Assembly: GCA_902574355.1 (NCBI GenBank)
Contig: CACGNN010000007.1
Location: 1,721 to 65,720 of the forward strand
Length of the DNA stretch: 64,000 bases
Source of the DNA: an uncultured SAR86 cluster bacterium
GTDB lineage: Bacteria; Pseudomonadota; Gammaproteobacteria; Magnimaribacterales; Magnimaribacteraceae
Reading direction: 5' to 3'
Shown: positions 1 to 25,703 of the stretch, one piece after another
Layout of the letters: each line of letters opens with the position of its first letter
Numbering within the stretch: position 1 is the stretch's first letter
The notes under the pieces: generated by a model
Seen by the model: the letters and a program-made list of their open reading frames with translations, nothing else
What the model was told of the DNA's origin: nothing
Databases searched by the model: none
Made by a program: the position numbers and the translations under genes

Positions 1-672
1 GGCATTGAAACAGATCTTGCAAATTTACCAAATATTCAAAGAAAGATAATGTCTAACTGTGCAAAATACGGAGTGAGGTCTATTGTTGCAACTCACCTTC
101 TAGAATCAATGATTGATAATCCTACACCCACAAGAGCAGAGGTTACCGATGTTGCAAATGCAATTTATGAAGGTGCTGATGCGGTTATGCTTTCGGGTGA
201 GACCACTATCGGGAAATATCCAATTGAGTCTGTAAAATTTATATCAAGAATTGCGAAGCAAACCGAAAAATATAGAACTCTTGGCTATGAAAGCCAACTA
301 ATATCAAAAACAGACTGGCAGCATCTTGGAGTGGCAGCAAAGGATATTGCTGAATCTATCAAGGCTGATGGGATTATTGCAATTACTAGATCAGGTCAAA
401 CTGCTGAAATTGTAGCTAATGCTAAACCTTTTATGATCCCTATATTTGCATTTAGCAATAATAAAAAAACCATTAAACAATTGTCTTTAACTGGTTCAGT
501 TCATGCCTATAAATCATCTATGTATTCAGATCACGAAAAAAACCTTCAATCAATTATGAAAATTTTAAAGAAGGAACTTTCACCCACAAGAGAGTTAAAA
601 TTTGTTGTGATTTCTGGAATTCTTTCAGAAAATTCTGCTGATGCGATAGAAGTAAGATCATTGAATGCTTAA
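1..672 (+). CDS. pyk: pyruvate kinase, C-terminal ~220 aa (5' end lies upstream of the window)
   Basis: The frame is open from base 1 (GIETDLANLPNIQRKI precedes the tracked Met at 49). ATHLLESMIDNPTPTRAEVTDVANAIYEGADAVMLSGETTIGKYP is the conserved pyruvate kinase core, followed by the C-terminal regulatory domain. Confidence 0.9.
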   Translation, partial: GIETDLANLPNIQRKIMSNCAKYGVRSIVATHLLESMIDNPTPTRAEVTDVANAIYEGADAVMLSGETTIGKYPIESVKFISRIAKQTEKYRTLGYESQLISKTDWQHLGVAAKDIAESIKADGIIAITRSGQTAEIVANAKPFMIPIFAFSNNKKTIKQLSLTGSVHAYKSSMYSDHEKNLQSIMKILKKELSPTRELKFVVISGILSENSADAIEVRSLNA

Positions 673-755
673 TATAAAACAGGCTGAGTTATTAGGATAA
701 AGTATTATTTAGATAAGACTTTAATCTTTATTTTATACCTATAAACTTATCTGTA

Positions 756-2111
756 ATGACTCAATCTATAGTCGAAAGACTAACTTTGAAAACAAGGATA
801 GGCTATGGGATAGGAGATATAGCAATTTGTTTATACTGGAGTGGTGTAGGCTTATATCTTCTATATTTTTATACTGACGTTGTTGGTATCTCTGGATCCT
901 TAGCAGGTTTGATTTATTTTATTGGGATGGCTTGGGATGCCGCCACTGACCCATTCATGGGTTACATAGCTGAAAGAACAAGAACAAAATGGGGTGTTTA
1001 TCGTCCATATTTATTGTTTGGGAATATTCCTTTGGCTTTGTCATTTGTTTTATTATTTTGGGTTCCACCTCTAGAAGGCTCTTCACTATTCTTTTTTCTT
1101 TTATTCGCAAATTTATTGCATAGGACTTGCTTTACTTTAGTAAGCGTTCCATTTTCATCTCTCACCCCTAGGATAACTTCTGACAGTCAAGAAAGGACCA
1201 ATTTGACCGGCTTTAGAATGCTAGGAGCCCAAACTGGAACAAACCTGATGGCTCTTTTAGCTTTTCCGATTATTTTTTGGGTTGGAGGAGAGGATGAAAG
1301 TATGGGGTTTATATTTTTAGCTTCTGTAGCTGGAATAACTGCCATACTCATTCACTCAATTACATTTTTAACAGTAAAAGAACCAGATAATGATCAGGGT
1401 ATAGAGAGAGTTGGTGGAAGTCTTGCTGACGCAGCAAAGGCAATCAGAAGGAATAAACCCTTTTGGCTAGTTTTTTCCGCAACTTTAATCGTAGGTATAA
1501 CAACTATATTTTTTGGAAATAACCTCATCTATTACACGAAGTACGCTTTAGATCTGCATGAGCACCAAGGAACAATTTTATTCACTAGTGGCATAGTAGC
1601 TTTTTTAAGCATACCAATTTGGTGGATCATTTCTAATAGATTAGGAAAGAAAATTACATGGTTAATCTCAAGCACAGTAACTTTATCTTCTTTAATATTA
1701 TTTTATTTCTATGATATTAAGACACTCAATGAGTTACTTTTTTTAGTTGCCTTTATTGGTTTTGGCAGCGGCGCAGGAGGCATTTTATTTTGGTCCATGC
1801 TTCCAGATACCATTGAATACGGTGAAGTACTTACAGGGGTTAGGAGCGAGTCATCATTATATGGATTTATGACGTTTGCTCAAAAAGGGTCTATAGCAAT
1901 AGCGGTTCTGATACTTGGTTGGGTTTTGGATGCAATTGGTTACCAGGCAAATCAAGCTATGTCGGAAGGTACTATTGATAATATGAAAATCATAATGACT
2001 CTGATACCCATATTAGGCATCTCTTGCAGTCTTATAATAATCTATTTCTATCCTATAGATTCAAAAATGCACAAGGACCTATTGAGACAACTTCAAAAGG
2101 AAGAAATATGA
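756..2111 (+). CDS. glycoside-pentoside-hexuronide (GPH) family cation symporter (MelB/YicJ-like)
   Basis: 451-aa polytopic membrane protein. Loop 2-3 carries the GPH signature DAATDPFMGYIAERTRTKWGVYRPY. Its stop overlaps the next start (ATGA at 2108..2111). Confidence 0.85.
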   Translation: MTQSIVERLTLKTRIGYGIGDIAICLYWSGVGLYLLYFYTDVVGISGSLAGLIYFIGMAWDAATDPFMGYIAERTRTKWGVYRPYLLFGNIPLALSFVLLFWVPPLEGSSLFFFLLFANLLHRTCFTLVSVPFSSLTPRITSDSQERTNLTGFRMLGAQTGTNLMALLAFPIIFWVGGEDESMGFIFLASVAGITAILIHSITFLTVKEPDNDQGIERVGGSLADAAKAIRRNKPFWLVFSATLIVGITTIFFGNNLIYYTKYALDLHEHQGTILFTSGIVAFLSIPIWWIISNRLGKKITWLISSTVTLSSLILFYFYDIKTLNELLFLVAFIGFGSGAGGILFWSMLPDTIEYGEVLTGVRSESSLYGFMTFAQKGSIAIAVLILGWVLDAIGYQANQAMSEGTIDNMKIIMTLIPILGISCSLIIIYFYPIDSKMHKDLLRQLQKEEI

Positions 2112-4105
2112 AAATAATTAAATGGGGAATATTAGGTACTGGTTCAATAGCAAAAGCTTTCGCAGATGCTTTAAAAGAAACTGAAGGTGAATTAGTTGCT
2201 GTAGCCAGTAGTACTGAATTAAGGGCGAAAGAATTTTGTGTACCATATGGTTGTAAGCCAATAGAAGGTCATCACAATTTAATTTCAATGCCAGAAATTG
2301 ATGCTATTTACGTAGCAACGCCTCACACAAGTCACTTTGAACTTACAGCCGAATGCCTAAAAAATAAAAAAGCAGTTCTTTGTGAAAAGCCTATGACTAT
2401 TAATGCGACCGAAACAATGGCTCTTATAGATCTATCTAGAAAAAATAACACACTTCTGATGGAAGCATTTATGTACAAAACACACCCACAAACCAAAAAA
2501 ATAATGGAGATTATTCAAGAGAAGTTAAATGCTCCATTAGATATAAGTGCTGAATTTTGCTTTTCAGTTGATGTCCCAGAAACTCACAGACTGGTTAATC
2601 GTGAATTAGGTGGCGGATCTATTTTAGATATCGGATGTTATCCAGTTTCCATGTCACGACATGCTGTAGGGGCTGTAAATGGTAAAAACTTTTTAAATCC
2701 GATTTCAATAGAAGGAGAGGGAGAGTTAAATTCTCAAGAAATAGATCTAAATGCTTCAGCAATTTTAAAGTTTGAAGATGAATCAATTGCTAAGATAAAG
2801 TCAGCTACCAATCTGAGCACGGAGAGTGATGTAAGAATTACAGATGGAAGAAATACTATTTTAGTCAATCAACCTTGGCATTGTGGAGAATTTACAGACA
2901 GAAAATCCCAATTAAAAATAATAGATAAAGAAGGTAATGAAGAGGAGATTGATATTTCAACTGATAAAGGAATTTATGCATTAGAAATAGATCATTTTTC
3001 AGAAATTTTTCATGCCCAATCTACCGAATCGTCGTTAATTCCGCATAATGATTCTCATGGCAATATGATCGCTCTGGATACATGGAGAAAAGATTTAAGG
3101 GTTGTTTACGATGAAGATAGGGGGGAAAGGAGAAAGTTTCCCATCATTTCAGACAAAATTCCAAGAGAAATACTTCCAGCTCTAAAGATTCCTGGAATTG
3201 ATAAAGAATTATCTCGTTTAGTATTTGGTTGCGATAATCAATCCGATACTAATCATGCATTTGCTATGTTTGATCACTTTTATATGAAAGGAGGAAATGT
3301 TTTTGATACAGCTTATATCTACAATAATGGAAAAAGTGATTATTACCTAGGAAGTTGGATTAGATCCCGGAACTTGAGAGAACAAGTTGTAATTCTTGGA
3401 AAAGGGGCACATACACCCGATTGCGAACCGGATAAAATTAGGCCGCAGTTAGAGGAAACTTTAAATAGAATGTCCTCTGATTATCTGGATATCTATTGCT
3501 TGCATAGAGATAACGACTCTTTACCAGTTGAAGGTTTTATTGATACTTTAAATGATCTCAAAGATGAAGGACTGATAAAGGTTTTTGGTGCATCAAATTG
3601 GTCATTAAAAAGGTTTAAAGAAGCGAATAACTATGCTCTATCCAATGGAAAGGAGCCCTTTACTATTTTGAGTAATAATTTCAGTCTTGCACGAATGAAC
3701 AATCCTGTTTGGCCAGGATGTTACAGCTGTTCTGATGATGAATACGTTGAATATCTTACTGATAGTCAGATTGCTATTTTTCCTTGGTCCAGTCAAGCTA
3801 GAGGTTTTTTTCTAGATTCTCAAGAATTTTCTGGATTAAGACATGTCGCTGATCCAAACAGAGAAGAGCAAGAAAGGGTCTGGGGAAGCAAAGAAAACAA
3901 AGAAAGACGAAAAAGATGTTTTGAGTTAGCTTCTAAAAAGTCAGTTGCTCCAATTCAGTTAGCTCTTTCATTTGTACTTAACCAGAAGTTTCCATCTTTT
4001 CCATTAATAGGTCCTAGAAATTTCTTTGAAACTGAAAGTTCGTTAGAAGCGATCAAAATTGATTTAACCTACGAAGAAATCTCTTGGCTTGATTTAAATT
4101 CTTAA
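2108..4105 (+). CDS. two-domain fusion: Gfo/Idh/MocA-family NAD(P) oxidoreductase (N-terminal) + aldo-keto reductase (C-terminal)
   Basis: The tracked ORF starts at 2024 inside the transporter gene; the ATG at 2108 is the credible start (MKIIKWGILGTGSIAKAF Rossmann motif, CEKPM EKP motif). The first ~340 aa look Gfo/Idh/MocA-like. The last ~290 aa (LVFGCDNQ, GGNVFDTAYIYNNGKSD, LGKGAH, CLHRD) look AKR-like. Confidence 0.8.
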   Translation: MKIIKWGILGTGSIAKAFADALKETEGELVAVASSTELRAKEFCVPYGCKPIEGHHNLISMPEIDAIYVATPHTSHFELTAECLKNKKAVLCEKPMTINATETMALIDLSRKNNTLLMEAFMYKTHPQTKKIMEIIQEKLNAPLDISAEFCFSVDVPETHRLVNRELGGGSILDIGCYPVSMSRHAVGAVNGKNFLNPISIEGEGELNSQEIDLNASAILKFEDESIAKIKSATNLSTESDVRITDGRNTILVNQPWHCGEFTDRKSQLKIIDKEGNEEEIDISTDKGIYALEIDHFSEIFHAQSTESSLIPHNDSHGNMIALDTWRKDLRVVYDEDRGERRKFPIISDKIPREILPALKIPGIDKELSRLVFGCDNQSDTNHAFAMFDHFYMKGGNVFDTAYIYNNGKSDYYLGSWIRSRNLREQVVILGKGAHTPDCEPDKIRPQLEETLNRMSSDYLDIYCLHRDNDSLPVEGFIDTLNDLKDEGLIKVFGASNWSLKRFKEANNYALSNGKEPFTILSNNFSLARMNNPVWPGCYSCSDDEYVEYLTDSQIAIFPWSSQARGFFLDSQEFSGLRHVADPNREEQERVWGSKENKERRKRCFELASKKSVAPIQLALSFVLNQKFPSFPLIGPRNFFETESSLEAIKIDLTYEEISWLDLNS

Positions 4106-4149
4106 ACAATAAAATAATTCTTTTATAAAAATAAATTTATTGATATTCT

Positions 4150-4378
4150 CTATGTAGGCGTCCCACATTCAATTTAACACGAGGGGAATTGAATTTGTGG
4201 ATCTTTATTACCCTCTACAGGAGGTGATCACTATTAGTATTTATTTTAGAAGAGGAACAACAGGAGTATCCTTCTGACACGGGTTACCCCCGGTTCCGGC
4301 TAACAATTTAAACAGTTAGTTGAAAAGTAGTTGAGATACGCTTTTCGGAATCCCCGCTCTAGGGTGGGGATTTTTTTT
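4150..4378 (+). ncRNA. candidate structured small RNA (possible Csr/Rsm-type CsrA sponge); boundaries approximate
   Basis: Non-coding gap with no credible ORF. Extended -10-like TGATATTCT at 4141..4149. Stacked hairpins at 4163-4200, 4207-4228, 4246-4277, 4280-4292, 4300-4319 and 4322-4346. Seven GGA motifs, two of them loop-exposed CAGGAG. Ends in a strong + strand intrinsic terminator. No match to recalled tmRNA, RNase P, SRP or 6S motifs. Confidence 0.4.
4349..4378 (+). terminator. Rho-independent terminator, + strand orientation
   Basis: AATCCCC-gctctagggt-GGGGATT stem-loop followed by a run of eight T (4371..4378). On the minus strand the stem is followed by TTCCGAAAAG (not U-rich), so it is mainly a + strand terminator. 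The T-run overlaps the stop codon of the minus-strand cupin gene. Confidence 0.75.
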
Positions 4379-4775
4379 ACTTTCTAGCACCCTCACTATC
4401 GAAAACTCTCAGATAAATAAGCTGCTCGAGTTTAGATGTATTTTTAACTTTAACGTAGTCACCTTCTTCAGCTAAGATGATATTTCCTGCAGTTATAGTC
4501 AGCTCAGCTTTATGTTCAATGCCAAAACTAGGGTTTGTTCCATGACCAGCTTCGTGATTTGCATACTCCACGACTTCCATTTCACCAACACCAGATAAAA
4601 ACACGTAAACAACTTCGGATTCAATCAGTCTATGTCCACCGGTAGATCCATTCGGGTCTATGATAGTTTTACTCGCAACAAGTTTTTCTAAAATAGTGTT
4701 CGTATATACTTTGTAAGTATTTTCGCTTCTCCAAAGATTTTCTCCGACCTGAAAGTTTTCGTATTTTTTTGCCAT
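4377..4775 (-). CDS. small cupin-fold protein, function unknown
   Basis: 132 aa, beta-rich, with the cupin-like core GSTGGHRLIESEVVYVFLSGVGEMEV ... ITAGNIILAEEGDYVKVKN. The metal-ligand motif is degenerate. Confidence 0.6.
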   Translation of the reverse strand: MAKKYENFQVGENLWRSENTYKVYTNTILEKLVASKTIIDPNGSTGGHRLIESEVVYVFLSGVGEMEVVEYANHEAGHGTNPSFGIEHKAELTITAGNIILAEEGDYVKVKNTSKLEQLIYLRVFDSEGARK

Positions 4776-4863
4776 ATCTATAAAAGTTAAAACTATATTC
4801 TAGCATTACTTCCTCTTTACTGTTTAGTTACTTGCACTATAAGATCTACTCAGGAGAGATTAA

Positions 4864-6489
4864 ATGAGAGCAAGAAAATTTTGGGGATGGGGTTATGAAG
4901 ATGAACTTCTTACTTTAGAAGAAGAAAATAATATAGATAAGCGTATAGCAAAAACTTTTGAATTAGATTCTGTAGAAAGAATAGAAATACCAAAAATAGA
5001 AAATGTAAATCTACCTGAGTCCTCACTAAAGAGTCCAAATAGTCTTAAGGCTATTGTCTCAAATGATAAATTGGAGAGACTTAATCATACCTATGGAAAA
5101 TCTTTCCCGGACTCAGCAAGATCCATATTAGGTCAATTTCCAGCACCTCCCGATTTTGTAGCTTTTCCCGATTCTGAAGAAGATATAACAAATATACTAG
5201 ACTGGGCGTCTTCAAATGATATAGCAGTTATTCCTTACGGTGGAGGCTCCAGTGTATGTGGAGGAGTTGAGACTAATGTTGGTGATGATTACAACGGAGT
5301 TATTTCTTTAGATATGAAAAATCTTAATTCTATTATTGAGATAGATAGAGATAGCAGAACAGCTCTTATACAAGGAGGAATTCTTGGTCCAGATCTTGAA
5401 GGTCAGCTTAAAGAACATGATCTTACAATGCGTCATTATCCTCAAAGTTTTGAGTTCTCCACTCTCGGAGGATGGATAGCAACTAGATCTGGTGGACATT
5501 ATGCTACTTTATATACCCATATAGATGATTTTGTTGAGTCCTTGAAGATGATTACTCCTTCGGGTTTATTTGAATCTAGAAGATTGCCAGGATCTGGTGC
5601 TGGCCCAAGCCCTGATAGGTTAGCTATTGGATCTGAGGGTATCATGGGTGTAATAACTGAAGCATCAATGCGTCTGCAAGACAGACCTACTTATCGATCT
5701 TCTTGCACAGTTGAATTTACCGACTATACAAATGCATTAAGTGCCCTAAGACACATTAGCCAAGCTGGTTTATTTCCAGCAAATTGTAGGTTATTAGATT
5801 CAAATGAAGCCTTATTCAATGGTGCTGGAGATGGGTCTAAACACCTATTAATTATAGCTTTTGAATCTGCTGATCATGACAAAAGTCATTCGCTAAGAAG
5901 AGCTTTAGAAATAGTTGAAGAATATGAAGGCATTTTTGAAGAACCAAAAGAATTGAAAGACGCACATAGAAGCGGATCATCTGGCAGTTGGAGAAGTAGC
6001 TTTATTAGGGCACCTTATTTAAGAGAAAGCTTTACTAGAAGAGGTATTATTCAAGACACATTTGAAACAGCAATAACTTGGGATAAAAGTCATACATTTA
6101 TAGAAAATATCAAAGAACAGACTGCTCAAGCAATTTTAGAAATAACTGGAAAGCCTTCACTAGTAACTTGTCGTATCACTCATAGCTATCCAGATGGATT
6201 GGCTCCTTATTTTACTTTTGGAGCTTTCTCTACTCCCAAATCTATGATGGAAATTTGGAAAGAAATAAAGCTAGCTACTAATGAAATTTGTACTACTAAC
6301 CAAGGGACAGTAACTCATCACCATGCAGTAGGAAGAGATCATCGTCCTAAAGGTTATGATGACCAAAGACCAGATCTTTTCAATAAAGTTTTAGTAGCAG
6401 CTAAATCATCTCTAGATCCCAAAGGAATAATGAATCCCGGCGTTTTAATAGATCCTGAGGGAAAAAATATAAGTAACTGGATGGCATGA
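4864..6489 (+). CDS. FAD-linked oxidase, alkyl-dihydroxyacetonephosphate synthase (AGPS)-like
   Basis: 541 aa. The N-terminal FWGWGYED and the PCMH-type FAD-binding segment (AVIPYGGGSSVCGG) are typical of AGPS / D-lactate dehydrogenase-type FAD oxidases. C-terminal THHHAVGRDH. Confidence 0.8.
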   Translation: MRARKFWGWGYEDELLTLEEENNIDKRIAKTFELDSVERIEIPKIENVNLPESSLKSPNSLKAIVSNDKLERLNHTYGKSFPDSARSILGQFPAPPDFVAFPDSEEDITNILDWASSNDIAVIPYGGGSSVCGGVETNVGDDYNGVISLDMKNLNSIIEIDRDSRTALIQGGILGPDLEGQLKEHDLTMRHYPQSFEFSTLGGWIATRSGGHYATLYTHIDDFVESLKMITPSGLFESRRLPGSGAGPSPDRLAIGSEGIMGVITEASMRLQDRPTYRSSCTVEFTDYTNALSALRHISQAGLFPANCRLLDSNEALFNGAGDGSKHLLIIAFESADHDKSHSLRRALEIVEEYEGIFEEPKELKDAHRSGSSGSWRSSFIRAPYLRESFTRRGIIQDTFETAITWDKSHTFIENIKEQTAQAILEITGKPSLVTCRITHSYPDGLAPYFTFGAFSTPKSMMEIWKEIKLATNEICTTNQGTVTHHHAVGRDHRPKGYDDQRPDLFNKVLVAAKSSLDPKGIMNPGVLIDPEGKNISNWMA

Positions 6490-6544
6490 CTATAGAAAAA
6501 ATTTAGATAATCTGGCAAAATTGAATGTATAAACGGGAGGGTTT

Positions 6545-7123
6545 ATGTCAAAACAAGCAACTTTTACTGAAATGCTAAATGGTACTGCCGAAGATTATGC
6601 AATCATCGGTAGAGAAACTTCTGAATATGCAAAAAATTTACCGGATAGGATATTAGAACATCTAGCCATTTTAAAGGGTGATACTGGTGGTTTTGCTGTT
6701 GATCGTTTTACTCATTGTTTACAAACAGCAACAAGAGCATATAAAGATGGAAGAGATGAAGAATACGTTGTTTGTGCCTTACTCCATGACATTGGAGATA
6801 CTTTGGCTTCGGCAAATCATGCAGACCTAGCTGCCACAATGTTACAACCGTTTGTTTCTGAAGAAAACTACTGGATTGTGAAACATCATGGAATTTTCCA
6901 AGGCTACTACTTCTTTGACTTTTTAGGACTGGATAAAAATATGAGAGATGAGTACAGAGATAGTCCTTACTGGCATGCTTGTGCTGAATTTTGTGCAAAA
7001 TATGATCAAAATTCTTTTGATCCAGAATATGAATGTATGTCCATCGAAGAGTTTGAGCCGATGGTGAGGAATGTATTTGCCAAACCAAGAAACTCTATCT
7101 ATAAAGCAAGAGATTACGCTTAA
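6545..7123 (+). CDS. HD-domain metalloprotein (candidate MIOX/PhnZ-type diiron oxygenase or phosphohydrolase)
   Basis: 192 aa. HD dyad in LLHDIGD, plus extra conserved-looking ligands: H57 (FTHCLQTA), H92 (ANHADL), H114/H115 (KHHGIF) and D154 (AKYDQNSF). Confidence 0.7.
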   Translation: MSKQATFTEMLNGTAEDYAIIGRETSEYAKNLPDRILEHLAILKGDTGGFAVDRFTHCLQTATRAYKDGRDEEYVVCALLHDIGDTLASANHADLAATMLQPFVSEENYWIVKHHGIFQGYYFFDFLGLDKNMRDEYRDSPYWHACAEFCAKYDQNSFDPEYECMSIEEFEPMVRNVFAKPRNSIYKARDYA

Positions 7124-7138
7124 TCACAACTCGCTTCT

Positions 7139-9574
7139 ATGGACAGAATAGAATCCTTAATAGGGGAGCTCACCCTTGAAGAAAAAGTTTCTATTTTGTC
7201 AGGCTCTTCTGCTTGGCATACCACCGCTGTACCTAGACTTAACATTCCTCGAGTAAAGATGACTGACGGCCCCATAGGCGCCAGAGGAGATTCTATTTCT
7301 GGTGCTACTTCGGCTTGCTTTCCAAGTGCCTCTTGTCTTTCTTCTTCTTGGGATAAAGAGAATATAGAAAATATTGCAAGAGCTATTGGAATAGAAGCAA
7401 AAAGCAAAGACGCTGATGTTTTACTGGGTCCAACGATTAACCTACATCGACATCCTTTAGGTGGAAGGCATTTCGAATGTTACTCCGAAGATCCTGTTTT
7501 GACTGGTGAGTTAGCAAGTAGTTATGTACAAGGTGTCCAATCGGTTGGAGTCTCTGCATGCCTCAAACATTTTATAGGTAATGATACTGAATATCAGAGA
7601 CACTTTGTTAGTTCAAATATTGATGAACGAACCTTAAGGGAGCTATATCTTTTACCCTTTGAAATGGGAGTAAAGGCTGGGTCTTTATCAGTTATGTCTG
7701 CTTATAATCAATTAAATAATATATTTTGCTCTTCTCATGATGAGATGCTTAATAAAGTACTTAAAGATGAATGGAATTTTCCTGGATATGTAGTGAGTGA
7801 TTGGGGTGCAGCGCAAGATACAATCGGCAATGCAAATGGAGGACTGGATTGCGAAATGCCAGGTCCTGCAAGAAGTTGGGGTGAAAACTTAGTAAAAGCG
7901 GTAAATAAAGGGAAGGTAGAGGAGGAAGTAGTTGATGATAAGGTAAGGAGGATTCTCAGAGTTGCTGAATTTACAGGAAGACTAGACAAACCAGAAGAAA
8001 AACCAGAAGAAAGTAATAATTTGGAAGAAGATAGAGTTTTGATCAGACAATCTGGGTCTGAGGGCATGGTCTTACTCAAGAATGATGGAGTCCTTCCTTT
8101 GAAACCACAAGCAATAAAAACAATTGCAGTTATAGGTCCCAATGCTCTAAAGGGACAATATATGGGAGGTGGCAGCGCATCACTTAACCCGCATTATGTA
8201 ATACATCCATTAGAGGGGATCGAAGCTGCTTTGGGTAATGAAAAGCAAGTTAATTATGCAAAGGGTTGTCATACACATAAATTTCTTCCCGCTATACCGA
8301 GTAATCTTTTTAAAGAAAATGATGGTTTTCAAGTCGACTTTTATGACGGACAAGAGTTTGATGGAAAACCTATTGAGACTAAAATCCTAAAAGGAAATAA
8401 GTTTTGGGCCATGGGAGGTTTTGGTCTAGATATAGTATCGCAATCAAAGCGACCTTCATTGAGTGTAAGATTTACAGGTGAGTTGCAACCAGATTTCTCT
8501 GGAGAGTATGATTTTGAAATATTTAGTATAGGACCCTCCAGACTTTCTATTAATGGAGAGACCCAAATTGATAATTGGACTTCTCAAGATCCAGGTGACG
8601 CGTTCTTTGGTATGGGCTCTGCTCCAAAAAGAAAAACAATAAGTTTTGAAGAAGGAAAAACATATCTTCTGGAAGTTGAATATAAGTGGGAAGGGCGATT
8701 CCCTGCTGTCCAAATAGGCATGCAGGCACCAGACCAATTCGATTTAATGGAAGAAGCTAAGTCTATAGCCAAAGAGGCGGACGCAGTTATTTTAATAGTT
8801 GGTACGAATTCTGATTGGGAAACTGAAGGTAATGATAGAGCTAACTTAGATCTACCCTCAAATCAAGATGAGCTAATTGAGGAAGTATGCAAACTAAATA
8901 AAAAAACGGTAGTTGTTCTTAATACGGGATCTCCCTGTTTGATGCCATGGGTTGAAGAGGCTGGTTCAATTTTACAGTGTTGGTTTCCAGGTCAAGAATT
9001 TGGAAACTCTTTATCCGATATAATATTTGGAAAAATAAATCCTTCAGGAAAATTACCTACTACTTTCCCAAAATCCATTGAAGATACGCCTGCTTATGCA
9101 ACATACCCAGGTAAAGATCTACAGATGGATTATGAAGAGGGTTTGTACATCGGATATAGATGGTACGATAAAGAAGAAATTGGCCCATTATTTCCATTTG
9201 GTCATGGTCTCTCCTATACTTCTTTCGATTATTCAAATTTAAGAGCAATACCACCTAAAGGTAATGCTTCTGTAGCTGCTTTTGAATTTGAAATTTCCAA
9301 TACAGGTGATGTTGCTGGCAAGGAAGTAATTCAAGGCTATGTAAACGTACCAGATTCAAAAATTGATCGACCAAGAAAAGAGCTCAAGAAATTCACAAAA
9401 ATTTATTTAGAACCAGGTGAGACTCAAAAAGTAAAATTCGAATTATCTGAAAGAGAATTATCATTTTGGAATGTTGATCTTCATGCTTGGCAAGTAGAGC
9501 CTGCAGAGTATATTTTCGAAATAGGAGCTTCTGCTGATGATATTAGAGGTTCGGCTTCTGTCTGGCTTGGTTAA
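7139..9574 (+). CDS. bglX: glycoside hydrolase family 3 beta-glucosidase with PA14 insert
   Basis: 811 aa. GH3 nucleophile region GYVVSDWGA, a PA14-like insert (SVRFTGELQPDFSGEYDFEIFSIGPSRLSINGE) and a C-terminal Fn3-like domain. No signal peptide, so probably cytoplasmic. Confidence 0.9.
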   Translation: MDRIESLIGELTLEEKVSILSGSSAWHTTAVPRLNIPRVKMTDGPIGARGDSISGATSACFPSASCLSSSWDKENIENIARAIGIEAKSKDADVLLGPTINLHRHPLGGRHFECYSEDPVLTGELASSYVQGVQSVGVSACLKHFIGNDTEYQRHFVSSNIDERTLRELYLLPFEMGVKAGSLSVMSAYNQLNNIFCSSHDEMLNKVLKDEWNFPGYVVSDWGAAQDTIGNANGGLDCEMPGPARSWGENLVKAVNKGKVEEEVVDDKVRRILRVAEFTGRLDKPEEKPEESNNLEEDRVLIRQSGSEGMVLLKNDGVLPLKPQAIKTIAVIGPNALKGQYMGGGSASLNPHYVIHPLEGIEAALGNEKQVNYAKGCHTHKFLPAIPSNLFKENDGFQVDFYDGQEFDGKPIETKILKGNKFWAMGGFGLDIVSQSKRPSLSVRFTGELQPDFSGEYDFEIFSIGPSRLSINGETQIDNWTSQDPGDAFFGMGSAPKRKTISFEEGKTYLLEVEYKWEGRFPAVQIGMQAPDQFDLMEEAKSIAKEADAVILIVGTNSDWETEGNDRANLDLPSNQDELIEEVCKLNKKTVVVLNTGSPCLMPWVEEAGSILQCWFPGQEFGNSLSDIIFGKINPSGKLPTTFPKSIEDTPAYATYPGKDLQMDYEEGLYIGYRWYDKEEIGPLFPFGHGLSYTSFDYSNLRAIPPKGNASVAAFEFEISNTGDVAGKEVIQGYVNVPDSKIDRPRKELKKFTKIYLEPGETQKVKFELSERELSFWNVDLHAWQVEPAEYIFEIGASADDIRGSASVWLG

Positions 9575-10483
9575 TTAAACTTTCTTAGGAGCCCCTTTTT
9601 CTTCTACTTCTTGGTCATGGAACTTTTTAGATTCAACTAGCTCAGGAATTAACTGATCTAGCTGATCAAGAGTCCATAAGTTATCTGTGGTAAAAGATTG
9701 AATAATTGCGGGCTGTTGCATAATTCCTAATATTCCTCCTTGTGAATGAATAATTTGTGACGTTACTTGGCTAGCTTCTTCGGTACATAGCCATGCTACT
9801 ACTGGAGCTATTTGACCTGGCCCTTGTGTCCAGTCATTTTCATCATACTTTCTTCCTGCAGCTTCAATAAGATCAATTGTCAGTCTTGTAGCAGCTCCTG
9901 GAGAAATAGTGTTTACAGTACATTTATATTTTGCAACTTCCAATGCAAGAGATCTTGTAAAGCCAGCTATGCCCTCTTTTGCAGCACCATAATTTACTTG
10001 TCCAAAATTTCCAAATAGACCTGAGACAGAAGACATATTGATAATCCTGCAGCCCAAAATATTATTGTCTCTCATATATCTCACTAAGGGTCTAGTGCAG
10101 TTATAGTGTCCTTTTAGATGGACTTCCATTATTACATCCCAATCAGACTCCTCCATGTTGTACAGTGTCTTGTCTCTTAAAATACCTGCATTATTTACAA
10201 GTATATCGGCACGACCAAATGATTCTATGGCGGTATTAAATATGTTTTGACCACCTTCAACTGTTCCTACGGAATCATAGTTGGCTGCTGCATCAGAGCC
10301 AAGGGCTTTTATTTCTTCGACAACCTCATCAGCTACTTTGCCTTCACCGCTTCCATCTCTACCTCCACCTAAATCATTTACTACAATTTTTGCTCCTTCT
10401 GAAGCTAAATAAAGGCATATTTCTCTTCCTATACCTCTTCCAGCCCCAGTGATTATTGCAACCTTATCTTTTAATCTAGCCAT
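9575..10483 (-). CDS. short-chain dehydrogenase/reductase (SDR) with C-terminal extension
   Basis: TGAGRGIG cofactor motif and YGAAKEG (YxxxK). An AGGGGG Shine-Dalgarno lies between the two in-frame ATGs, favouring 10483 (MARLKDK) over the tracked 10498. Confidence 0.85.
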   Translation of the reverse strand: MARLKDKVAIITGAGRGIGREICLYLASEGAKIVVNDLGGGRDGSGEGKVADEVVEEIKALGSDAAANYDSVGTVEGGQNIFNTAIESFGRADILVNNAGILRDKTLYNMEESDWDVIMEVHLKGHYNCTRPLVRYMRDNNILGCRIINMSSVSGLFGNFGQVNYGAAKEGIAGFTRSLALEVAKYKCTVNTISPGAATRLTIDLIEAAGRKYDENDWTQGPGQIAPVVAWLCTEEASQVTSQIIHSQGGILGIMQQPAIIQSFTTDNLWTLDQLDQLIPELVESKKFHDQEVEEKGAPKKV

Positions 10484-10586
10484 ATTTATCCCCCTCATTT
10501 ATTCTACTTCAAAAAAAAATTTAAGGTATTTATTTAGTCTTATTTAATGTATAAATGGACTGAGTTATCAGGGAGAATAACTAATT

Positions 10587-12026
10587 ATGGAGGAGAATAA
10601 TCTAAAAGCTCAATCCGCTTCTGCAAAGACGATGTGGACGTATGGCTTTGGTTCAATAGGCGTTGGAATCAAGAATAACTTGCTAGGGACCTGGTTACTT
10701 TTTTATTATCAAGATGTTTTGGGTTTGGATGCAGTGCTTGTTACTGCAGCAATAGGTATTGCATTGGTAATAGATGCACTCTCAGATCCTTTTGTGGGAG
10801 TTTGGTCCGATCGTCTTAAAACTAAATGGGGAAGAAGACATCCATTTATGTATGGAGCCATAATTCCTTTTGCCCTTTGTTATTATTTGATTTTACAAGA
10901 CCCAGGTGATATTTCGGATTCAGCACTTTTTACTAGACTTTTAGTTTTGATGATCCTTATGAGACTTGCAATGACTTTTTACGAAGTTCCTAGAGGCGCT
11001 TTAGGTCCGGAATTAACTAAAGATTATGACCAGAGAAATATAATAGCTGGTATAGGTATGGCCCTTGGATGGATTGGTGGTGCGGGTATTTCCTTTATCC
11101 ACATGGAATACTTTTTAGTTGATAGTTTCTCTAATGGTGCCGGATACCAATTGTTAGCCTTTTGGGGAGGTCTTGGTATTTTCGTTAGTACTGTAATTAC
11201 GACTGTTGGGACTCATAGTCGCATACCATACTTACATGTCCCACCTGAAAGATCTTTTAAGATTAAAACCTTTTTTCGGGAGGCAAAAGAAACTCTCTCT
11301 AATAGATCATGGTTAGTTTTATTTGCTTCAGGTTGTATTTATTCTCTTGTGGTAGGAACTGATACAGGAGCAGGAACTTACTACAATACTTATTTCTGGG
11401 AGTGGAAACCAAATCAAATATCTACATTTGCTGCTTGGAATGCAGCAAGTGTTGTATTTATAGCTTTGTTTGCACCAAGGATTGCAGTAGGTCGAAGTAA
11501 AAAAAAGATAGCTGTTGGAATCTTTCTAACCTCGATAGTGGTAGGGCCCTTACCTATGGTGCTGAGATTGCTTGAACCTATCATAGGCATACAACTTTTT
11601 CCTGCAAATGGTTCAGATTTAATATGGTGGATCCTTCTGATTCATAGTTGTGCATTAGTATCTATTGGTTCCTTGGGGTTTATCTTTATCACATCTATGG
11701 CAATGGAAATCGTAGAAGACGTAGAAAGAACAACAGGAAGAAGAGAAGAGGGGTTATTAGGTACAGTTAGTTCAATGATACAAAAACTTATTGGTGCCGG
11801 AGGCGTTCTAATTGCTGGGTTGATACTTGCTTGGGCCGGTTTTGATGATCCCGGTATTACAGAAGAAATGAAAAGTGGGGCACTTATAGACAGATTTGCA
11901 ACAATTCATATAGCAATAGGCTTTTTCTTACCTATTATTTCGACTCTTTTGATTCTTAAATATGACATTGATCGGAAAGGTCATCTAGATAATGTAAATG
12001 ATCTTGGTTATGTAGAGAAGAACTAA
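10587..12026 (+). CDS. GPH-family (MelB/MFSD2-like) symporter, paralog A
   Basis: 479-aa polytopic protein with DALSDPFVGVWSDRLKTKWGRRHPFMY. It shares long motifs with the 15057 gene (GFGSIxxGIKNN, FYEVPxxxLGPELT, TGRREEG). Confidence 0.85.
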   Translation: MEENNLKAQSASAKTMWTYGFGSIGVGIKNNLLGTWLLFYYQDVLGLDAVLVTAAIGIALVIDALSDPFVGVWSDRLKTKWGRRHPFMYGAIIPFALCYYLILQDPGDISDSALFTRLLVLMILMRLAMTFYEVPRGALGPELTKDYDQRNIIAGIGMALGWIGGAGISFIHMEYFLVDSFSNGAGYQLLAFWGGLGIFVSTVITTVGTHSRIPYLHVPPERSFKIKTFFREAKETLSNRSWLVLFASGCIYSLVVGTDTGAGTYYNTYFWEWKPNQISTFAAWNAASVVFIALFAPRIAVGRSKKKIAVGIFLTSIVVGPLPMVLRLLEPIIGIQLFPANGSDLIWWILLIHSCALVSIGSLGFIFITSMAMEIVEDVERTTGRREEGLLGTVSSMIQKLIGAGGVLIAGLILAWAGFDDPGITEEMKSGALIDRFATIHIAIGFFLPIISTLLILKYDIDRKGHLDNVNDLGYVEKN

Positions 12027-12814
12027 TGTTCTTCTTCCCAATTTCCGACGACAACGAAAGTGGTTCTAGACCTATAGTTTGTTATTTTATTATCGGTATA
12101 TGTTGCTTTATTTTCTTATGGCAAAGCACTCTTCCTGTAAATTTAAATCAGGAGGCCATATATAATTTTGGAGTCGTTCCTGCAGCTGTGCTGGGTAGTC
12201 AAGAAAGTTTTATAAGTCCGTATTTAACAATTTTCACTTCAATGTTTATGCATGGAGGATGGATGCATTTGATAGGTAATATGGTCTTTCTTTGGATATT
12301 TGGTGACAACATTGAAGATAGTATGGGACATAAGAAGTTTCTTATTTTTTATTTTGTTTGTGGAATAGCTGCTGCTTTACTTCAAGCATTAATTAATCCT
12401 GAGTCCAGTATCCCAATGATAGGGGCAAGTGGAGCAATTGCTGGTATTTTAGGTGCTTATTTAGTTCTTCATCCAAAAGCCAATGTGAATGTTTTATTTT
12501 GGCTTTTTATTTTTATAACAGTAATAAAGGTCCCTGCTTTTATCGTTCTAGTTATCTGGATATTCAGTCAATTCTTTAGTGCATCAATTGGCTCAGAAGG
12601 TGGGGTTGCGTATTTCGCACATATTGGTGGTTTTATTGCAGGCTGCCTATTAATTTATTTCTTTAAACACTCAAATATAAGATTATTTCAGTCGGGAAAT
12701 TCTAAATCGTTCGAGTCCAGTAATTTCTCAATGAATAGACTCTTTAGTCAACAAAAAGAAAGAGATTTTATGCAAGAATTTATCGACACGGCAAACAAAA
12801 AGGATAAAAATTAA
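12026..12814 (+). CDS. rhomboid-family intramembrane serine protease
   Basis: 262 aa. Catalytic GASGAIAGILGAY (GxSG) and HIGGFIAG histidine, plus a WMHLxxNM-like motif (GWMHLIGNM). The start overlaps the upstream stop (TAATG). Confidence 0.85.
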   Translation: MFFFPISDDNESGSRPIVCYFIIGICCFIFLWQSTLPVNLNQEAIYNFGVVPAAVLGSQESFISPYLTIFTSMFMHGGWMHLIGNMVFLWIFGDNIEDSMGHKKFLIFYFVCGIAAALLQALINPESSIPMIGASGAIAGILGAYLVLHPKANVNVLFWLFIFITVIKVPAFIVLVIWIFSQFFSASIGSEGGVAYFAHIGGFIAGCLLIYFFKHSNIRLFQSGNSKSFESSNFSMNRLFSQQKERDFMQEFIDTANKKDKN

Positions 12815-12817
12815 TCT

Positions 12818-15040: not shown

Positions 15041-15056
15041 ATTAAATTTATAAATC

Positions 15057-16538
15057 ATGGAAGAACAGGTACAAGATACTAAGTTAGATTTTAAGACCAA
15101 GTTCTTTTACGGATTTGGATCTATTTCTTTTGGTATTAAAAATAACGGTTTTAGTTTTTTTGTTCTATTTGTGTACAACTCTGTATTCGGTTTGCCAGGA
15201 TGGATGACAGGACTCGCGTTAAATATAATATTAGTAATTGATGCTATTACAGATCCTTTAGTTGGTTATTATTCTGATCGAACTAGATCTAAATGGGGTA
15301 GGCGACATCCATATATGTACGCTGCCGCTATACCAGTTGCTATAACTTATTATTTTCTTTGGACACCGCCAGAATACTACTCAGATTGGCAATTATTTTT
15401 TTACTTTTTGGTTTGTGCAATCATTATTAGAGTTTTTATAACCTTCTATGAGGTCCCTTCAATTTCTCTTGGACCTGAGCTAACTAGTAATTATGTAGAA
15501 AGGACTTCATTAATGTCTTTTAGATACTTTTTCGGTTGGTTTGGTGGCCTAACTACTTATAATTTAGTTTGGTTTTGGTTTGGACCAAATAATGTAACTG
15601 ATGCTTATTCTGATGGTAGATTCAATCCAGATGCTTGGGCAGATTATGGTCTTGTAGCGGCCATTCTGATTTTTATCGGAATTCTTGTTACAAGTCTTGG
15701 TACACATAAACATATTCCTAGGTTATTAGCCCCGCCCGAATCTAAAGCTGCACCTTTAGGAGAAGTTTTAAAAGAACTTAAAGAAACCTTACTCTCTAAT
15801 AAGTCATATATGTTTTTATTTTTTTCAGGCCTTCTTGCTGCTATGGCAGGCGGAATTGAAGCAGCATTTGCCATATATTTTGATTCTTTCTTTTGGGGTT
15901 TAAATACGAATGAGATGTTAACAAGAGGTTTATGCCTTTACCTTGCTCCAATAATAGCTATTTTCGTTGCTCCAATTCTTACTGATAGATTTGGTAAAAA
16001 GAAAACGGTTATGTCCATTTGGGCATTTCAGATAATATTTGCTGCTTTGCCTTTTGCCTTAAGGTACATAGACTTGGTTTACGGTACTTCACTTTTCCCT
16101 GCAAATGGAACTACTTATCTTCTTCCTGTGTTGTGCGTACATGTAGTTATAAACGTTTCCGCTGGAATCATAGTATTTGCAACACTCGCCTCGATGCTTA
16201 TGGACTTAGTTGAAGATATTCAGCTTAAGACAGGTAGAAGAGAGGAAGGAATACTTTTCTCGGCTAGAAGTTTTGCGGATAAAGCAGTTAGTGGTTTTGG
16301 ATTAACCTTTGCTGGAATAATTTTAACTCTAATTTCTTTCCCTGACCCTGAGGCAAGAAAAATGCTTGATAATGTAGTTCCAGATCAAATATTAGCTAAT
16401 CTAGCCTTGTGGTACGTACCCATTTGTATTATCGCCTTTGGAAGCGCCTTATCTCTAGTTTCAGGCTACACCCTTACCCGAGATGATCATGAAGAAAATG
16501 CTGCAAACCCAGATACTAAGGTTTGGAAAGATAGTTAA
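15057..16538 (+). CDS. GPH-family (MelB/MFSD2-like) symporter, paralog B
   Basis: 493 aa with DAITDPLVGYYSDRTRSKWGRRHPYMY. Clearly paralogous to the 10587..12026 gene. Confidence 0.85.
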   Translation: MEEQVQDTKLDFKTKFFYGFGSISFGIKNNGFSFFVLFVYNSVFGLPGWMTGLALNIILVIDAITDPLVGYYSDRTRSKWGRRHPYMYAAAIPVAITYYFLWTPPEYYSDWQLFFYFLVCAIIIRVFITFYEVPSISLGPELTSNYVERTSLMSFRYFFGWFGGLTTYNLVWFWFGPNNVTDAYSDGRFNPDAWADYGLVAAILIFIGILVTSLGTHKHIPRLLAPPESKAAPLGEVLKELKETLLSNKSYMFLFFSGLLAAMAGGIEAAFAIYFDSFFWGLNTNEMLTRGLCLYLAPIIAIFVAPILTDRFGKKKTVMSIWAFQIIFAALPFALRYIDLVYGTSLFPANGTTYLLPVLCVHVVINVSAGIIVFATLASMLMDLVEDIQLKTGRREEGILFSARSFADKAVSGFGLTFAGIILTLISFPDPEARKMLDNVVPDQILANLALWYVPICIIAFGSALSLVSGYTLTRDDHEENAANPDTKVWKDS

Positions 16539-16996: not shown

Positions 16997-17005
16997 AATT
17001 CAATA

Positions 17006-17326: not shown

Positions 17327-17335
17327 AAAATTAAA

Positions 17336-18259: not shown

Positions 18260-18261
18260 AG

Positions 18262-20739: not shown

Positions 20740-20740
20740 T

Positions 20741-25694: not shown

Positions 25695-25703
25695 GGAAAG
25701 AAT

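What the first reader, a model, noticed from the sequence alone, without database searches (positions are those of the whole stretch)
4140..4380. Candidate Csr/Rsm-type CsrA-sponge sRNA in the longest non-coding gap of the window
The 271-nt gap between the + strand Gfo-AKR stop (4105) and the minus-strand cupin stop (4377) is visibly more G+C-rich than other spacers and holds no credible ORF. It ends in the only canonical intrinsic terminator I found in 64 kb (AATCCCC-N10-GGGGATT + T8, 4349..4378). That terminator is oriented for the + strand, yet the nearest + strand CDS ends about 245 nt upstream. An extended -10-like TGATATTCT (4141..4149) with TTTATA 16 nt upstream could start a transcript of about 220 nt. 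Hand folding gives these stacked hairpins: 4163-4174/4187-4200 (12 bp, loop TAACACGAGGGG); 4207-4212/4223-4228 (loop CTCTACAGGA); 4246-4254/4270-4277 (loop GAACAACAGGAGTAT); 4280-4283/4289-4292; 4300-4304/4315-4319; 4322-4327/4341-4346. There are seven GGA trinucleotides (starting at 4185, 4199, 4220, 4254, 4263, 4347 and 4368), against roughly two expected at this base composition (my rough estimate). Two of them are CAGGAG (4218..4223 and 4261..4266) in predicted loops, close to the CAGGA(U/C/A)G repeat of E. coli CsrB. A GGA also sits in the single-stranded spacer just before the terminator, as in RsmY/RsmZ. csrA itself is encoded at 33044..33211. No Csr sponge RNA is, to my knowledge, described for streamlined marine lineages of this type.
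Basis: partly seen in the sequence, partly recalled or inferred. Interest (0 to 1): 0.8.

Follow-up and report, generated by a model that had tools for sequence, protein, structure and literature searches.

The report
Conserved structured small RNA of SAR86
The gap holds a real, separately transcribed, about 222-base structured RNA gene that is conserved across the abundant marine SAR86 bacteria. It does not look like a classic CsrA-sponge RNA, and its function is still unknown.

Summary
Window 4106..4376 is a gene-free gap with an extended -10 promoter, a strongly folding + strand (z = -3.3; - strand -1.1) and the best intrinsic terminator in 60 kb.

The element (about 4157..4378, +) occurs once in each of 61 SAR86 loci. 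Among the loci found through the neighbouring Gfo/AKR protein, it is 92-97% identical where that protein is only 73-95% identical. Helices P1, P4, P5 and the terminator show compensatory changes (97.6% of cells paired against 34-55% in slid controls; 0/500 shuffles).

Immediate neighbours differ between lineages: a TonB receptor with its own terminator, a tRNA-Arg, alkaline phosphatase, or a convergent cupin. So it is a stand-alone gene, not a 3' UTR or leader.

The Csr/Rsm-sponge reading is not supported:
- No Rfam match.
- GGA is not enriched (7 against 5.9 in dinucleotide shuffles; no homolog reaches p&lt;0.05).
- Only four GGA are conserved, and about two lie in predicted loops.
- There is no conserved GacA box.
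- Long invariant blocks unrelated to GGA are present.

It sits in the kind of sugar-metabolism region where Dupont et al. (2012) placed an "abundant non-coding RNA" from marine metatranscriptomes, so it is probably the same RNA. It has no Rfam family.

The most likely function is a trans-acting regulator. Base pairing is my leading guess, and protein or ribosome binding remains open.

The parts
4120..4149 (+). Promoter. It has a weak -35-like TTTTAT/CTTTTA and an extended -10, TG-A-TATTCT (4141..4149). In deeper SAR86 clades the same position reads TTGGGA(AC)-17 nt-TG-n-TAATCT.
   Evidence: The alignment of upstream regions from about 55 loci shows a conserved TTG(A/T)TA(A/T)TCT. The 7 nt after it are variable. 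Several loci have the upstream gene's own terminator or a tRNA just before this promoter.
4157..4378 (+). The RNA itself, about 222 nt. The 5' end is inferred from the promoter and the onset of conservation; the 3' end is the T-run.
   Evidence: nhmmer and cmsearch give one full-length copy per locus at 203-253 bits. The fold z-score is -3.27 on the + strand only. No Rfam family matches.
4163..4200 (+). P1 hairpin (4163-4175 / 4186-4200). Its loop, UUUAACACGAGGGG, is partly conserved and ends in GGGGA.
   Evidence: 8 of 13 pairs show changes on both sides that keep pairing.
4207..4229 (+). P2 hairpin. The anti-SD-like AUUACCCU (4207-4214) pairs with GGAGGUGAU (4220-4228). The invariant Shine-Dalgarno-like AGGAGGUGAUC lies at 4219-4229 and includes the first CAGGAG (4218-4223).
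   Evidence: 99.8% of cells are paired. Only one-sided wobble-compatible changes occur (A-U to G-U in 17 sequences, U-A to U-G in 21), so P2 is compatible but unproven. AGGAGGTGAT occurs once in 64 kb.
4233..4244 (+). Block AUUAGUAUUUAU, invariant at 10 of 12 positions (the other two >=90%). It is flanked by variable linkers and is predicted partly unpaired. It is a candidate seed or binding site.
   Evidence: Conserved in 52 sequences, and it was not part of the search pattern. Mean unpaired probability is 0.2-0.8.
4254..4297 (+). P3 three-way junction: P3 GGAAC/GUUCC (4254-4258/4293-4297), P3a CAGGAG/CUUCUG (4261-4266/4271-4276), P3b CGGG/CCCG (4280-4283/4289-4292). The joining bases are invariant.
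   Evidence: Invariant in all 16 loci found through the neighbouring protein, which is unbiased for the RNA. In the 46 metagenome loci part of this invariance was imposed by the search pattern. No covariation is available.
4298..4321 (+). P4 hairpin (GGCUAAC / GUUAG-UU) with a variable loop.
   Evidence: Compensatory changes: A-U to G-C in 11 sequences, and C-G to A-U in 22.
4322..4346 (+). P5 hairpin (GAAAAG..GU / AC.CUUUUC). It carries the nearly invariant block GUUGAGAUAC (4330-4339), whose ends form the inner GU/AC pairs.
   Evidence: 5 of 8 pairs have changes on both sides. The loop is predicted unpaired and is almost invariant.
4347..4378 (+). Rho-independent terminator: a 10-12 bp G+C-rich stem followed by T8.
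   Evidence: It is the best terminator-like site in 60 kb. 6 of 8 stem pairs covary, and a T-run is present in all homologs, one of them interrupted by a C.

Best explanation
Window 4157..4378 (+) is a stand-alone gene for a structured small RNA of about 222 nt, found throughout the SAR86 clade. It is transcribed from its own sigma-70-type promoter with an extended -10 and ends at a strong intrinsic terminator. These points are shown by sequence and comparison.

The RNA folds into five hairpin domains plus the terminator. P1, P4 and P5 are scaffolds that tolerate compensatory change. The functional information sits in invariant or near-invariant blocks:
- UUACCCUYU...AGGAGGUGRUC
- AUUAGUAUUUAU
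- the P3 three-way junction
- the P5 loop, GUUGAGAUAC

The next step is inferred. The RNA acts in trans as a post-transcriptional regulator. My leading guess is that exposed conserved blocks base-pair with mRNAs. The U-tailed terminator and the A/U-rich single strand look like the usual Hfq-type module. The C/U-rich anti-SD-like block could occlude ribosome-binding sites.

Its fixed position in a sugar-uptake and glycolysis region, and its probable identity with the 'abundant ncRNA' of Dupont et al. 2012, suggest a role in carbon or nutrient-uptake control. It is not a canonical multi-GGA CsrA sponge.

Confidence by layer: about 0.9 that it is a real independent structured sRNA gene, and about 0.35-0.4 for the base-pairing mechanism.
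For: Conservation exceeds that of the flanking genes. RNA identity is 92-97% where the adjacent protein is 73-95% identical, and 78-85% where the protein is 63-66% identical.

There is one copy in each of 61 SAR86 loci.

The structure is supported. 97.6% of cells are paired against 34-55% in slid controls. 21 pairs have double changes against 3-10 in slid controls. 0/500 shuffles reach the observed values.

Folding is strand-specific.

The promoter is conserved. An upstream-gene terminator or a tRNA-Arg lies directly before it in several clades.

The immediate neighbours vary on both sides, including a convergent gene downstream in the window. This rules out a leader or a 3' UTR.

A T-run of 6-8 follows the terminator stem in nearly all homologs.

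Conserved blocks that were not imposed by the search pattern are flanked by variable linkers.

Gene callers leave the gap empty in 8 further contigs.

Literature: PMC3358033 reports an abundant metatranscriptome ncRNA in the SAR86 glycolysis/glucose-uptake region. The window context is pyruvate kinase, an MFS sugar transporter, the RNA, and a GH3 enzyme nearby.
Against: No target was found. Duplex scans of the conserved blocks against the translation-initiation regions in the window gave nothing beyond background. The one striking 10-nt match, to csrA, is not conserved.

The amount of invariant sequence (>100 nt, including helices P2, P3 and P3a) is more than base-pairing sRNAs usually show. 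It looks more like a protein-, ribosome- or ligand-binding RNA.

hfq was not found in the window, and the rest of the genome was not available.

Expression was not measured here. The identity with the published ncRNA is inferred from context only, because Supplementary Fig. S5 and Shi et al. 2009 could not be read.
Confidence: 0.45

Rival explanations
1. Low-valency CsrA antagonist. The two invariant CAGGAG(G) motifs, plus AGGAA and the GGGGA of the P1 loop, bind one or two CsrA dimers and titrate the CsrA encoded at 33044..33211.
For: csrA is present and widespread in SAR86. Two invariant CAGGAG(G) motifs lie 43 nt apart, and the first is partly in the P2 apical loop. High abundance is reported for the probable same RNA, as expected for a titrating RNA. 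No other Csr-type RNA matched in the window.
Against: No Rfam Csr/Rsm match at E<10. GGA is not enriched in any of 52 homologs. Only 4 GGA are conserved, two of them in predicted stems. No conserved GacA box was found. Long invariant non-GGA blocks are left unexplained by this model. There is no repeat architecture.
Confidence: 0.15
2. A structured RNA that works through its fold rather than by base pairing. It would be a partner or decoy for another macromolecule, or a ligand-binding RNA acting in trans. One candidate partner is the 30S subunit, through the 11-nt perfect Shine-Dalgarno sequence AGGAGGUGAUC held in an SD/anti-SD-like hairpin.
For: More than 100 invariant positions include helices P2, P3 and P3a and their junction bases. 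This pattern is typical of RNPs and aptamers. AGGAGGUGAUC is complementary to the E. coli-type 16S 3' end, GAUCACCUCCU (my own knowledge; the SAR86 16S was not checked). It is unique in 64 kb. Its only variant, A to G, keeps pairing. A mutually exclusive pairing of CCCUY with the P1 loop RAGGG is 97% compatible and has one covarying pair, which hints at a switch. The RNA is probably abundant.
Against: No known family, motif or partner could be tied to it. The invariance of P3 is partly due to ascertainment. No protein gene co-occurs with it. The downstream genes vary, so a classical riboswitch is excluded.
Confidence: 0.25
3. An mRNA for a tiny peptide, or a dual-function RNA. The strong SD at 4219-4224 is followed 8 nt later by AUU (4233) and a 14-codon frame that ends at UGA 4275-4277.
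For: SD-to-start spacing is ideal. The 45-nt frame has no gaps and no in-frame stops in all 52 homologs.
Against: There is no AUG, GUG or UUG start. The GUG-start version is broken by a 1-nt insertion in three loci. Third codon positions are invariant, while codons 5-7 change radically and first and second positions change as often as third ones. This is an RNA-level pattern, not a coding one. The SD is predicted to be sequestered in P2.
Confidence: 0.05
4. A cis element of a neighbouring gene: a structured 3' UTR plus terminator of the GFO/AKR gene, or a shared terminator region. No independent RNA would exist.
For: It lies directly downstream of a + strand gene in most loci.
Against: The same element follows a TonB receptor (after that gene's own terminator), a beta-lactamase-like gene, an SDR or a tRNA-Arg in other clades. 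It has its own conserved promoter. Its conservation is far higher than that of the upstream gene.
Confidence: 0.03

Closest known systems
Csr/Rsm sponge sRNAs (CsrB, CsrC, RsmX/Y/Z)
   Same: A stand-alone gammaproteobacterial sRNA with stacked hairpins and a terminator, in a genome that encodes CsrA. It has two CAGGAG(G) motifs resembling the CsrB repeat CAGGA(U/C/A)G. It is probably very abundant.
   Different: No covariance-model match. GGA density is 2-3 times lower and not above chance. Half of the conserved GGA are in stems. There is no GacA box and no repeat structure. Sequence conservation outside GGA is extreme.
Long Hfq-type base-pairing sRNAs of Gammaproteobacteria (GcvB, SgrS, GlmZ; about 200-230 nt)
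   Same: Similar size, own promoter, Rho-independent terminator with a U-tail, and invariant single-stranded blocks between variable scaffolding hairpins. It lies next to sugar-uptake genes, as SgrS does.
   Different: No sequence or model similarity. No divergent regulator gene such as sgrR or gcvA. No target identified. Much more invariant sequence than those sRNAs.
Unnamed 'abundant non-coding RNA' of SAR86 (Dupont et al. 2012, PMC3358033; psRNA of Shi et al. 2009)
   Same: Same clade. It lies in a comparable variable glycolysis/glucose-uptake region, between genes, and is conserved between SAR86 genomes.
   Different: Identity could not be checked at the sequence level, because the supplementary alignment and Shi et al. 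are not held. No structure, family or mechanism is given in the parts of Dupont et al. I could read.
Orphan structured RNAs from marine metagenomes (IMES-1 to IMES-4 and similar Rfam families)
   Same: An environmental, lineage-restricted, highly structured RNA of unknown function.
   Different: No match to any of the 4227 Rfam 15 models at E<10.

Membership tests
Csr/Rsm sponge sRNA | Matches a CsrB/CsrC/RsmX/RsmY/RsmZ covariance model | tested here: not met
   cmscan of the whole window at gathering thresholds, and of 4050..4450 at E<10, returned no Csr/Rsm family.
Csr/Rsm sponge sRNA | Many GGA/ANGGA motifs (about 1 per 16-24 nt), above compositional expectation | tested here: not met
   7 GGA in 222 nt, against 5.9 in dinucleotide shuffles (p = 0.36). 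52 homologs have a mean of 5.69 against 5.33 expected, and none is significant. Only 4 are conserved.
Csr/Rsm sponge sRNA | GGA motifs presented in hairpin loops or single-stranded linkers | tested here: inconclusive
   Of the four conserved GGA, two sit at loop edges (P1 loop, P2 apex). Two lie in the predicted stems P3 and P3a. Those stems are invariant, so they are unproven.
Csr/Rsm sponge sRNA | GacA/UvrY upstream activating sequence (TGTAAG-N6-CTTACA) | tested here: not met
   10 of 57 upstream regions have a match with up to 3 mismatches, at scattered positions, against 13% in the background. In some clades a terminator or a tRNA lies within about 60-100 nt upstream.
Csr/Rsm sponge sRNA | CsrA encoded in the genome and bound by the RNA | not testable with these tools
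   csrA is present. Binding needs a gel shift.
Hfq-type trans-acting base-pairing sRNA | Own promoter and Rho-independent terminator with a U-tail, outside any ORF | tested here: met
Hfq-type trans-acting base-pairing sRNA | Conserved accessible seed with conserved complementary mRNA sites | tested here: inconclusive
   Partly unpaired conserved blocks exist. No target above background was found in the 64-kb window. Whole genomes were not available.
Hfq-type trans-acting base-pairing sRNA | hfq (or proQ) present in the organism | not tested
   A motif scan of the window found no hfq.
Riboswitch or cis-regulatory leader | Lies in the 5' UTR of a consistent class of downstream genes | tested here: not met
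   The downstream gene is convergent in the window. Elsewhere it is alkaline phosphatase, a 153-aa ORF, or panB.
6S RNA and other housekeeping RNAs (tmRNA, RNase P, SRP) | Match to the Rfam model. For 6S, a rod-like fold with a central bubble. | tested here: not met
   No Rfam match. The comparative structure is a series of separate hairpins.
Small-protein gene | Conserved start codon and a coding-type substitution pattern | tested here: not met
   The only gap-free frame starts with AUU, and its substitutions are not concentrated at third positions.

The most novel reading that the evidence does not exclude
The RNA founds a new class of fold-dependent regulatory RNA in one of the ocean's most abundant bacterial clades. 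Its invariant SD/anti-SD-like hairpin, which can switch to pair with the P1 loop, and its invariant three-way junction would form a binding platform. That platform would titrate a component of the translation apparatus (30S subunits, or an SD-recognising protein such as CsrA in an unusual low-valency mode). It would not act as an ordinary antisense sRNA.
Probability: 0.25. Interest if true: 0.8.

Novelty: new member of a known kind. Interest (0 to 1): 0.55.

Why it matters
SAR86 is among the most abundant heterotrophic bacterial clades of the surface ocean. It is uncultured and has a streamlined genome. From my own knowledge, such genomes carry few protein regulators.

This single RNA is conserved well beyond the level of its flanking genes. 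It is probably highly expressed, and it anchors a hypervariable carbon and nutrient-uptake island. That makes it a strong candidate for a central regulator of how these cells use carbon.

The work here gives it a covariance model, boundaries, a promoter and a tested secondary structure. With these it can be counted in metatranscriptomes, added to RNA family databases and tested biochemically. It also removes a tempting but unsupported annotation as a CsrB-like sponge.

Tried and rejected
1. Rfam at gathering thresholds and at E<10 gave only terminator-driven weak matches (rnk leader, NsiR1, PyrR); I dismissed them.
2. Phage database (blastn) and IMG/VR pattern scan: no match.
3. The GGA-enrichment statistics failed.
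4. Small-ORF reading: rejected on substitution pattern and on the lack of a canonical start.
5. Plain mutual information over all column pairs was swamped by clade-correlated changes, so I did not use it.
6. RNAalifold paired the 5' end (GUCCCRC) with the terminator's 3' strand. I treat this as an alternative or an artefact, because P1 explains the same bases and has better compensation.
7. Duplex scan of five conserved blocks against all translation-initiation regions in the window: nothing beyond the 1% background tail.
8. A 10-nt perfect match between the P5 loop (4331-4340) and the 3' end of csrA (33189-33198) looked exciting. However, most SAR86 CsrA proteins end in RINQE rather than RISSE, so the site cannot be conserved while the loop is invariant. 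I judge it a coincidence.
9. GacA box search: at background level.
10. Attempts to read Shi et al. 2009, Weinberg et al. 2009 and the Dupont supplement failed because they are not held. Other literature searches found no further description of the RNA.
11. A second copy or paralog in the window or in the loci: none. Extra nhmmer hits were the terminator palindrome only.
Full report
OBSERVATION

- The + strand GFO/IDH/MocA plus aldo-keto-reductase fusion gene ends at 4105. Its real start is probably the ATG at 2108 (Pfam).
- A 132-aa ORF on the - strand ends at 4377.
- The 271 nt between them hold no ORF of 30 aa or more.
- With crude gene calls, this is the longest spacer in the window that contains no gene or tRNA.
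- The RNA body has 41.9% G+C, against a mean of 28.7% for the other spacers.
- TGATATTCT is at 4141..4149, and the terminator AATCCCC-N10-GGGGATT plus T8 is at 4349..4378.
- That terminator is the top hit of the terminator scan over 1..60000.
- The + strand of 4150..4380 folds at -71 kcal/mol (z = -3.27, 0 of 200 shuffles as good). The - strand has z = -1.11.
- Seven GGA and two CAGGAG are at the stated positions.
- csrA at 33044..33211 is genuine.

The one statistical claim that fails is GGA enrichment. Dinucleotide-preserving shuffles give 5.9 +/- 1.6 (p = 0.36). Base composition alone gives 3.1. About 8% of equal-sized windows in the 64 kb have 7 or more.

WHERE IT COMES FROM AND HOW CONSERVED IT IS

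A scan of one genome per species with the upstream protein found orthologous loci only in SAR86-cluster Gammaproteobacteria, plus distant partial matches elsewhere.

The spacer is far better conserved than the protein next to it.
- RNA identity is 92-97% in 12 genomes whose Gfo/AKR protein is 73-95% identical.
- RNA identity is 78-85% where the protein is 63-66% identical.

A pattern scan of metagenome contigs gave 46 more loci. The pattern came from the core and was deliberately set to exclude the window's own clade. Each locus has one full-length copy. A more distant Gfo/AKR homolog (L013, 55% identity) has no copy.

There is no second copy in the window or in any locus. No Rfam 15 family matches, even at E<10 on the 400-nt region. 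There is nothing in phage collections.

AN INDEPENDENT GENE

The immediate neighbours change between SAR86 lineages.
- Upstream: Gfo/AKR, a TonB-dependent receptor followed by its own terminator, a beta-lactamase-like protein, an SDR, or a tRNA-Arg(TCG).
- Downstream: the convergent 132-aa ORF, an alkaline phosphatase, a three-gene set ending in a hybrid histidine kinase, or panB/panC.
- The FAD-oxidase/HD/GH3 block further downstream is retained in most loci.

Directly upstream of the conserved body every clade keeps an extended -10: TG-n-TA(A/T)TCT. Most clades outside the window's also have TTGGGA/TTGGAA 17 nt before it. The 7 nt between the -10 and the conserved body are variable, as expected around a start site.

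So the element is neither a 3' UTR of one gene nor a leader of another. It has its own promoter and terminator. This gives an RNA of about 222 nt, from about 4157 to 4378. Gene callers leave the gap empty in eight further contigs.

STRUCTURE

RNAalifold on 14 and on 52 sequences, followed by a hand-checked model (R1), gives these elements:

| Element | Window coordinates |
|---|---|
| P1 | 4163-4175 / 4186-4200 |
| P2 | 4207-4214 / 4220-4228 |
| P3 (three-way junction) | 4254-4258 / 4293-4297 |
| P3a | 4261-4266 / 4271-4276 |
| P3b | 4280-4283 / 4289-4292 |
| P4 | 4298-4304 / 4315-4321 |
| P5 | 4322-4331 / 4338-4346 |
| Terminator | 4347-4378 |

On the model-based alignment of 52 distinct sequences:
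- 97.6% of cells are standard pairs, against 34-55% when partners are slid by 1-3 columns.
- 21 pairs have changes on both sides, against 3-10 in the slid controls.
- None of 500 shuffles reaches the observed values.
- The compensatory changes are in P1 (8 pairs), P4 (2), P5 (5) and the terminator (6).
- P2 shows only one-sided, wobble-compatible changes.
- P3, P3a and P3b never vary, so they are compatible but unproven.

Part of the invariance of P3 in the metagenome set was imposed by my search pattern. In the 16 loci found through the neighbouring protein it is invariant without that bias.

The sixth (4246-4254/4270-4277) is not conserved.

WHAT IS CONSERVED

The scaffolding helices vary. 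Several blocks that were not part of the search pattern are conserved in all 52 sequences. AGGAGGUG, AGGAA and GGCU are fully invariant. The longer blocks have one or two positions that vary in a minority of sequences.
- UUACCCUYU ... A(C/A)AGGAGGUG(A/G)UC (4209-4229)
- AUUAGUAUUUAU (4233-4244)
- AGGAA (4253-4257)
- GGCU (4298-4301)
- GUUGAGAUAC, the P5 loop (4330-4339)

AGGAGGUGAUC is an 11-nt perfect Shine-Dalgarno sequence. It is complementary to the E. coli-type 16S 3' end (my own knowledge; the SAR86 16S was not checked). AGGAGGTGAT occurs once in 64 kb. In P2 it pairs with an anti-SD-like strand.

The same CCCUY can instead pair with RAGGG in the P1 loop. That alternative is 97.3% compatible, and one pair covaries (A-U 31, G-C 17, G-U 4). 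It is suggestive of a switch, but it rests on what may be a single evolutionary event.

TESTING THE CSR-SPONGE READING

Against:
- No model match.
- No GGA enrichment in any of 52 homologs (mean 5.69 against 5.33).
- Only four GGA are conserved: P1-loop edge, P2 apex, P3 strand and P3a strand. Averaged base-pair probabilities put about two of them in loops.
- No conserved GacA box. Matches with up to 3 mismatches occur in 10 of 57 upstream regions at scattered positions, against 13% in the background.
- There is no repeat architecture.
- Long invariant non-GGA blocks are present, which the sponge model does not explain.

For:
- csrA is present and widespread in SAR86.
- The two CAGGAG(G) motifs are invariant and 43 nt apart.

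I therefore keep CsrA binding as a minority possibility (about 0.15) and reject membership in the Csr/Rsm family.

OTHER READINGS TESTED

A 14-codon frame runs from AUU (4233) to UGA (4277), 8 nt after the SD. It has no gaps and no in-frame stops in all homologs. However, it has no canonical start, and its third codon positions are invariant while codons 5-7 vary radically. That is an RNA-level pattern, not a coding one.

A riboswitch or leader is excluded by the variable or convergent downstream genes.

Duplex scans of five conserved blocks against all translation-initiation regions of the window gave nothing beyond background.

A 10-nt perfect match between the P5 loop and the 3' end of csrA turned out not to be conservable. 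Most SAR86 CsrA proteins end in RINQE rather than RISSE. I treat it as chance.

LITERATURE

Dupont et al. 2012 (PMC3358033) describe a SAR86 genomic region that encodes glycolysis and glucose-uptake steps. [quoted passage not shown]

The window context is pyruvate kinase, an MFS sugar transporter, Gfo/AKR, the RNA and a GH3 enzyme nearby. Together with the variable neighbours, it fits that description closely. I could not read the supplementary alignment or Shi et al., so identity is probable (about 0.7) but not shown.

No later paper in the library names or characterises the RNA.

MOST LIKELY MECHANISM

Shown: an independent gene with a conserved promoter and terminator, and a structured RNA under very strong purifying selection across SAR86.

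Inferred: it acts in trans. My leading guess (about 0.35-0.4) is base pairing through the exposed invariant blocks. The terminator U-tail and the A/U-rich strand would serve as a chaperone module, and the C/U-rich block would act as an anti-SD seed.

The sheer amount of invariant sequence, including whole helices and a junction, keeps a fold-dependent role well alive (about 0.25). That role would be binding a protein, the 30S subunit or a ligand.

VERDICT

This is a real and interesting RNA gene. It was glimpsed before but is unclassified.

Noticed in passing
window 1..9600; loci L005, L080-L125: The RNA gene is a fixed point in a hypervariable island. Genes immediately on either side differ between SAR86 lineages: Gfo/AKR fusion, TonB receptor, beta-lactamase-like hydrolases, alkaline phosphatase, hybrid histidine kinase, SDR, panBC. 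The FAD-oxidase/HD/GH3 block is kept in most loci. A 2025 long-read study (PMC12379486) also reports an alkaline-phosphatase insertion as a structural variant in a SAR86 MAG.
   Followed up: partly
L113 6692-6768 (-), L104 1405-1481, L099 2272-2348: In three divergent loci a tRNA-Arg(TCG) gene lies directly upstream of the RNA's promoter on the same strand. This raises the question of whether the tRNA/sRNA pair marks an integration hotspot.
   Followed up: partly
upstream of the RNA in L011, L081, L110, L089, L099, L113 (equivalent to window 4120..4155): In deeper clades the promoter reads GGAACTT-N16-TCTAA. From my own knowledge, this is also the E. coli sigma-E consensus, overlapping the sigma-70 reading TTGGGA-17-TAATCT. 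The window's own clade has lost the GGAAC.
   Followed up: no
window 4331..4340 and 33189..33198: There is a 10-nt perfect complementarity between the invariant P5 loop and the 3' end of the csrA coding sequence. It cannot be conserved in most SAR86 csrA genes (RINQE C-termini), so it is judged coincidental.
   Followed up: yes
window 4161..4166 and 4365..4370 (A3 columns 6-11 and 226-231): The 5' end, GUCCCRC, can pair with the 3' strand of the terminator as well as with the 3' strand of P1. The R/Y position changes in step in all of these segments (A-U 17, G-C 27, G-U 7). This could be an alternative conformation or just clade-correlated change.
   Followed up: partly
window 2108..4105: The upstream gene is a 665-aa fusion of a GFO/IDH/MocA oxidoreductase and an aldo-keto reductase. 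Full-length relatives were found almost only in SAR86, plus one Actinomycetota MAG at 42% identity. Its start overlaps the stop of the MFS transporter (ATGA at 2108-2111).
   Followed up: no
L092 5445-8090 (also L005, L082, L094, L101): In one sub-clade a hybrid sensor histidine kinase of about 880 aa, with several receiver domains, lies about 1.9 kb downstream of the RNA on the same strand. It was not tested for any relation to BarA/GacS.
   Followed up: no
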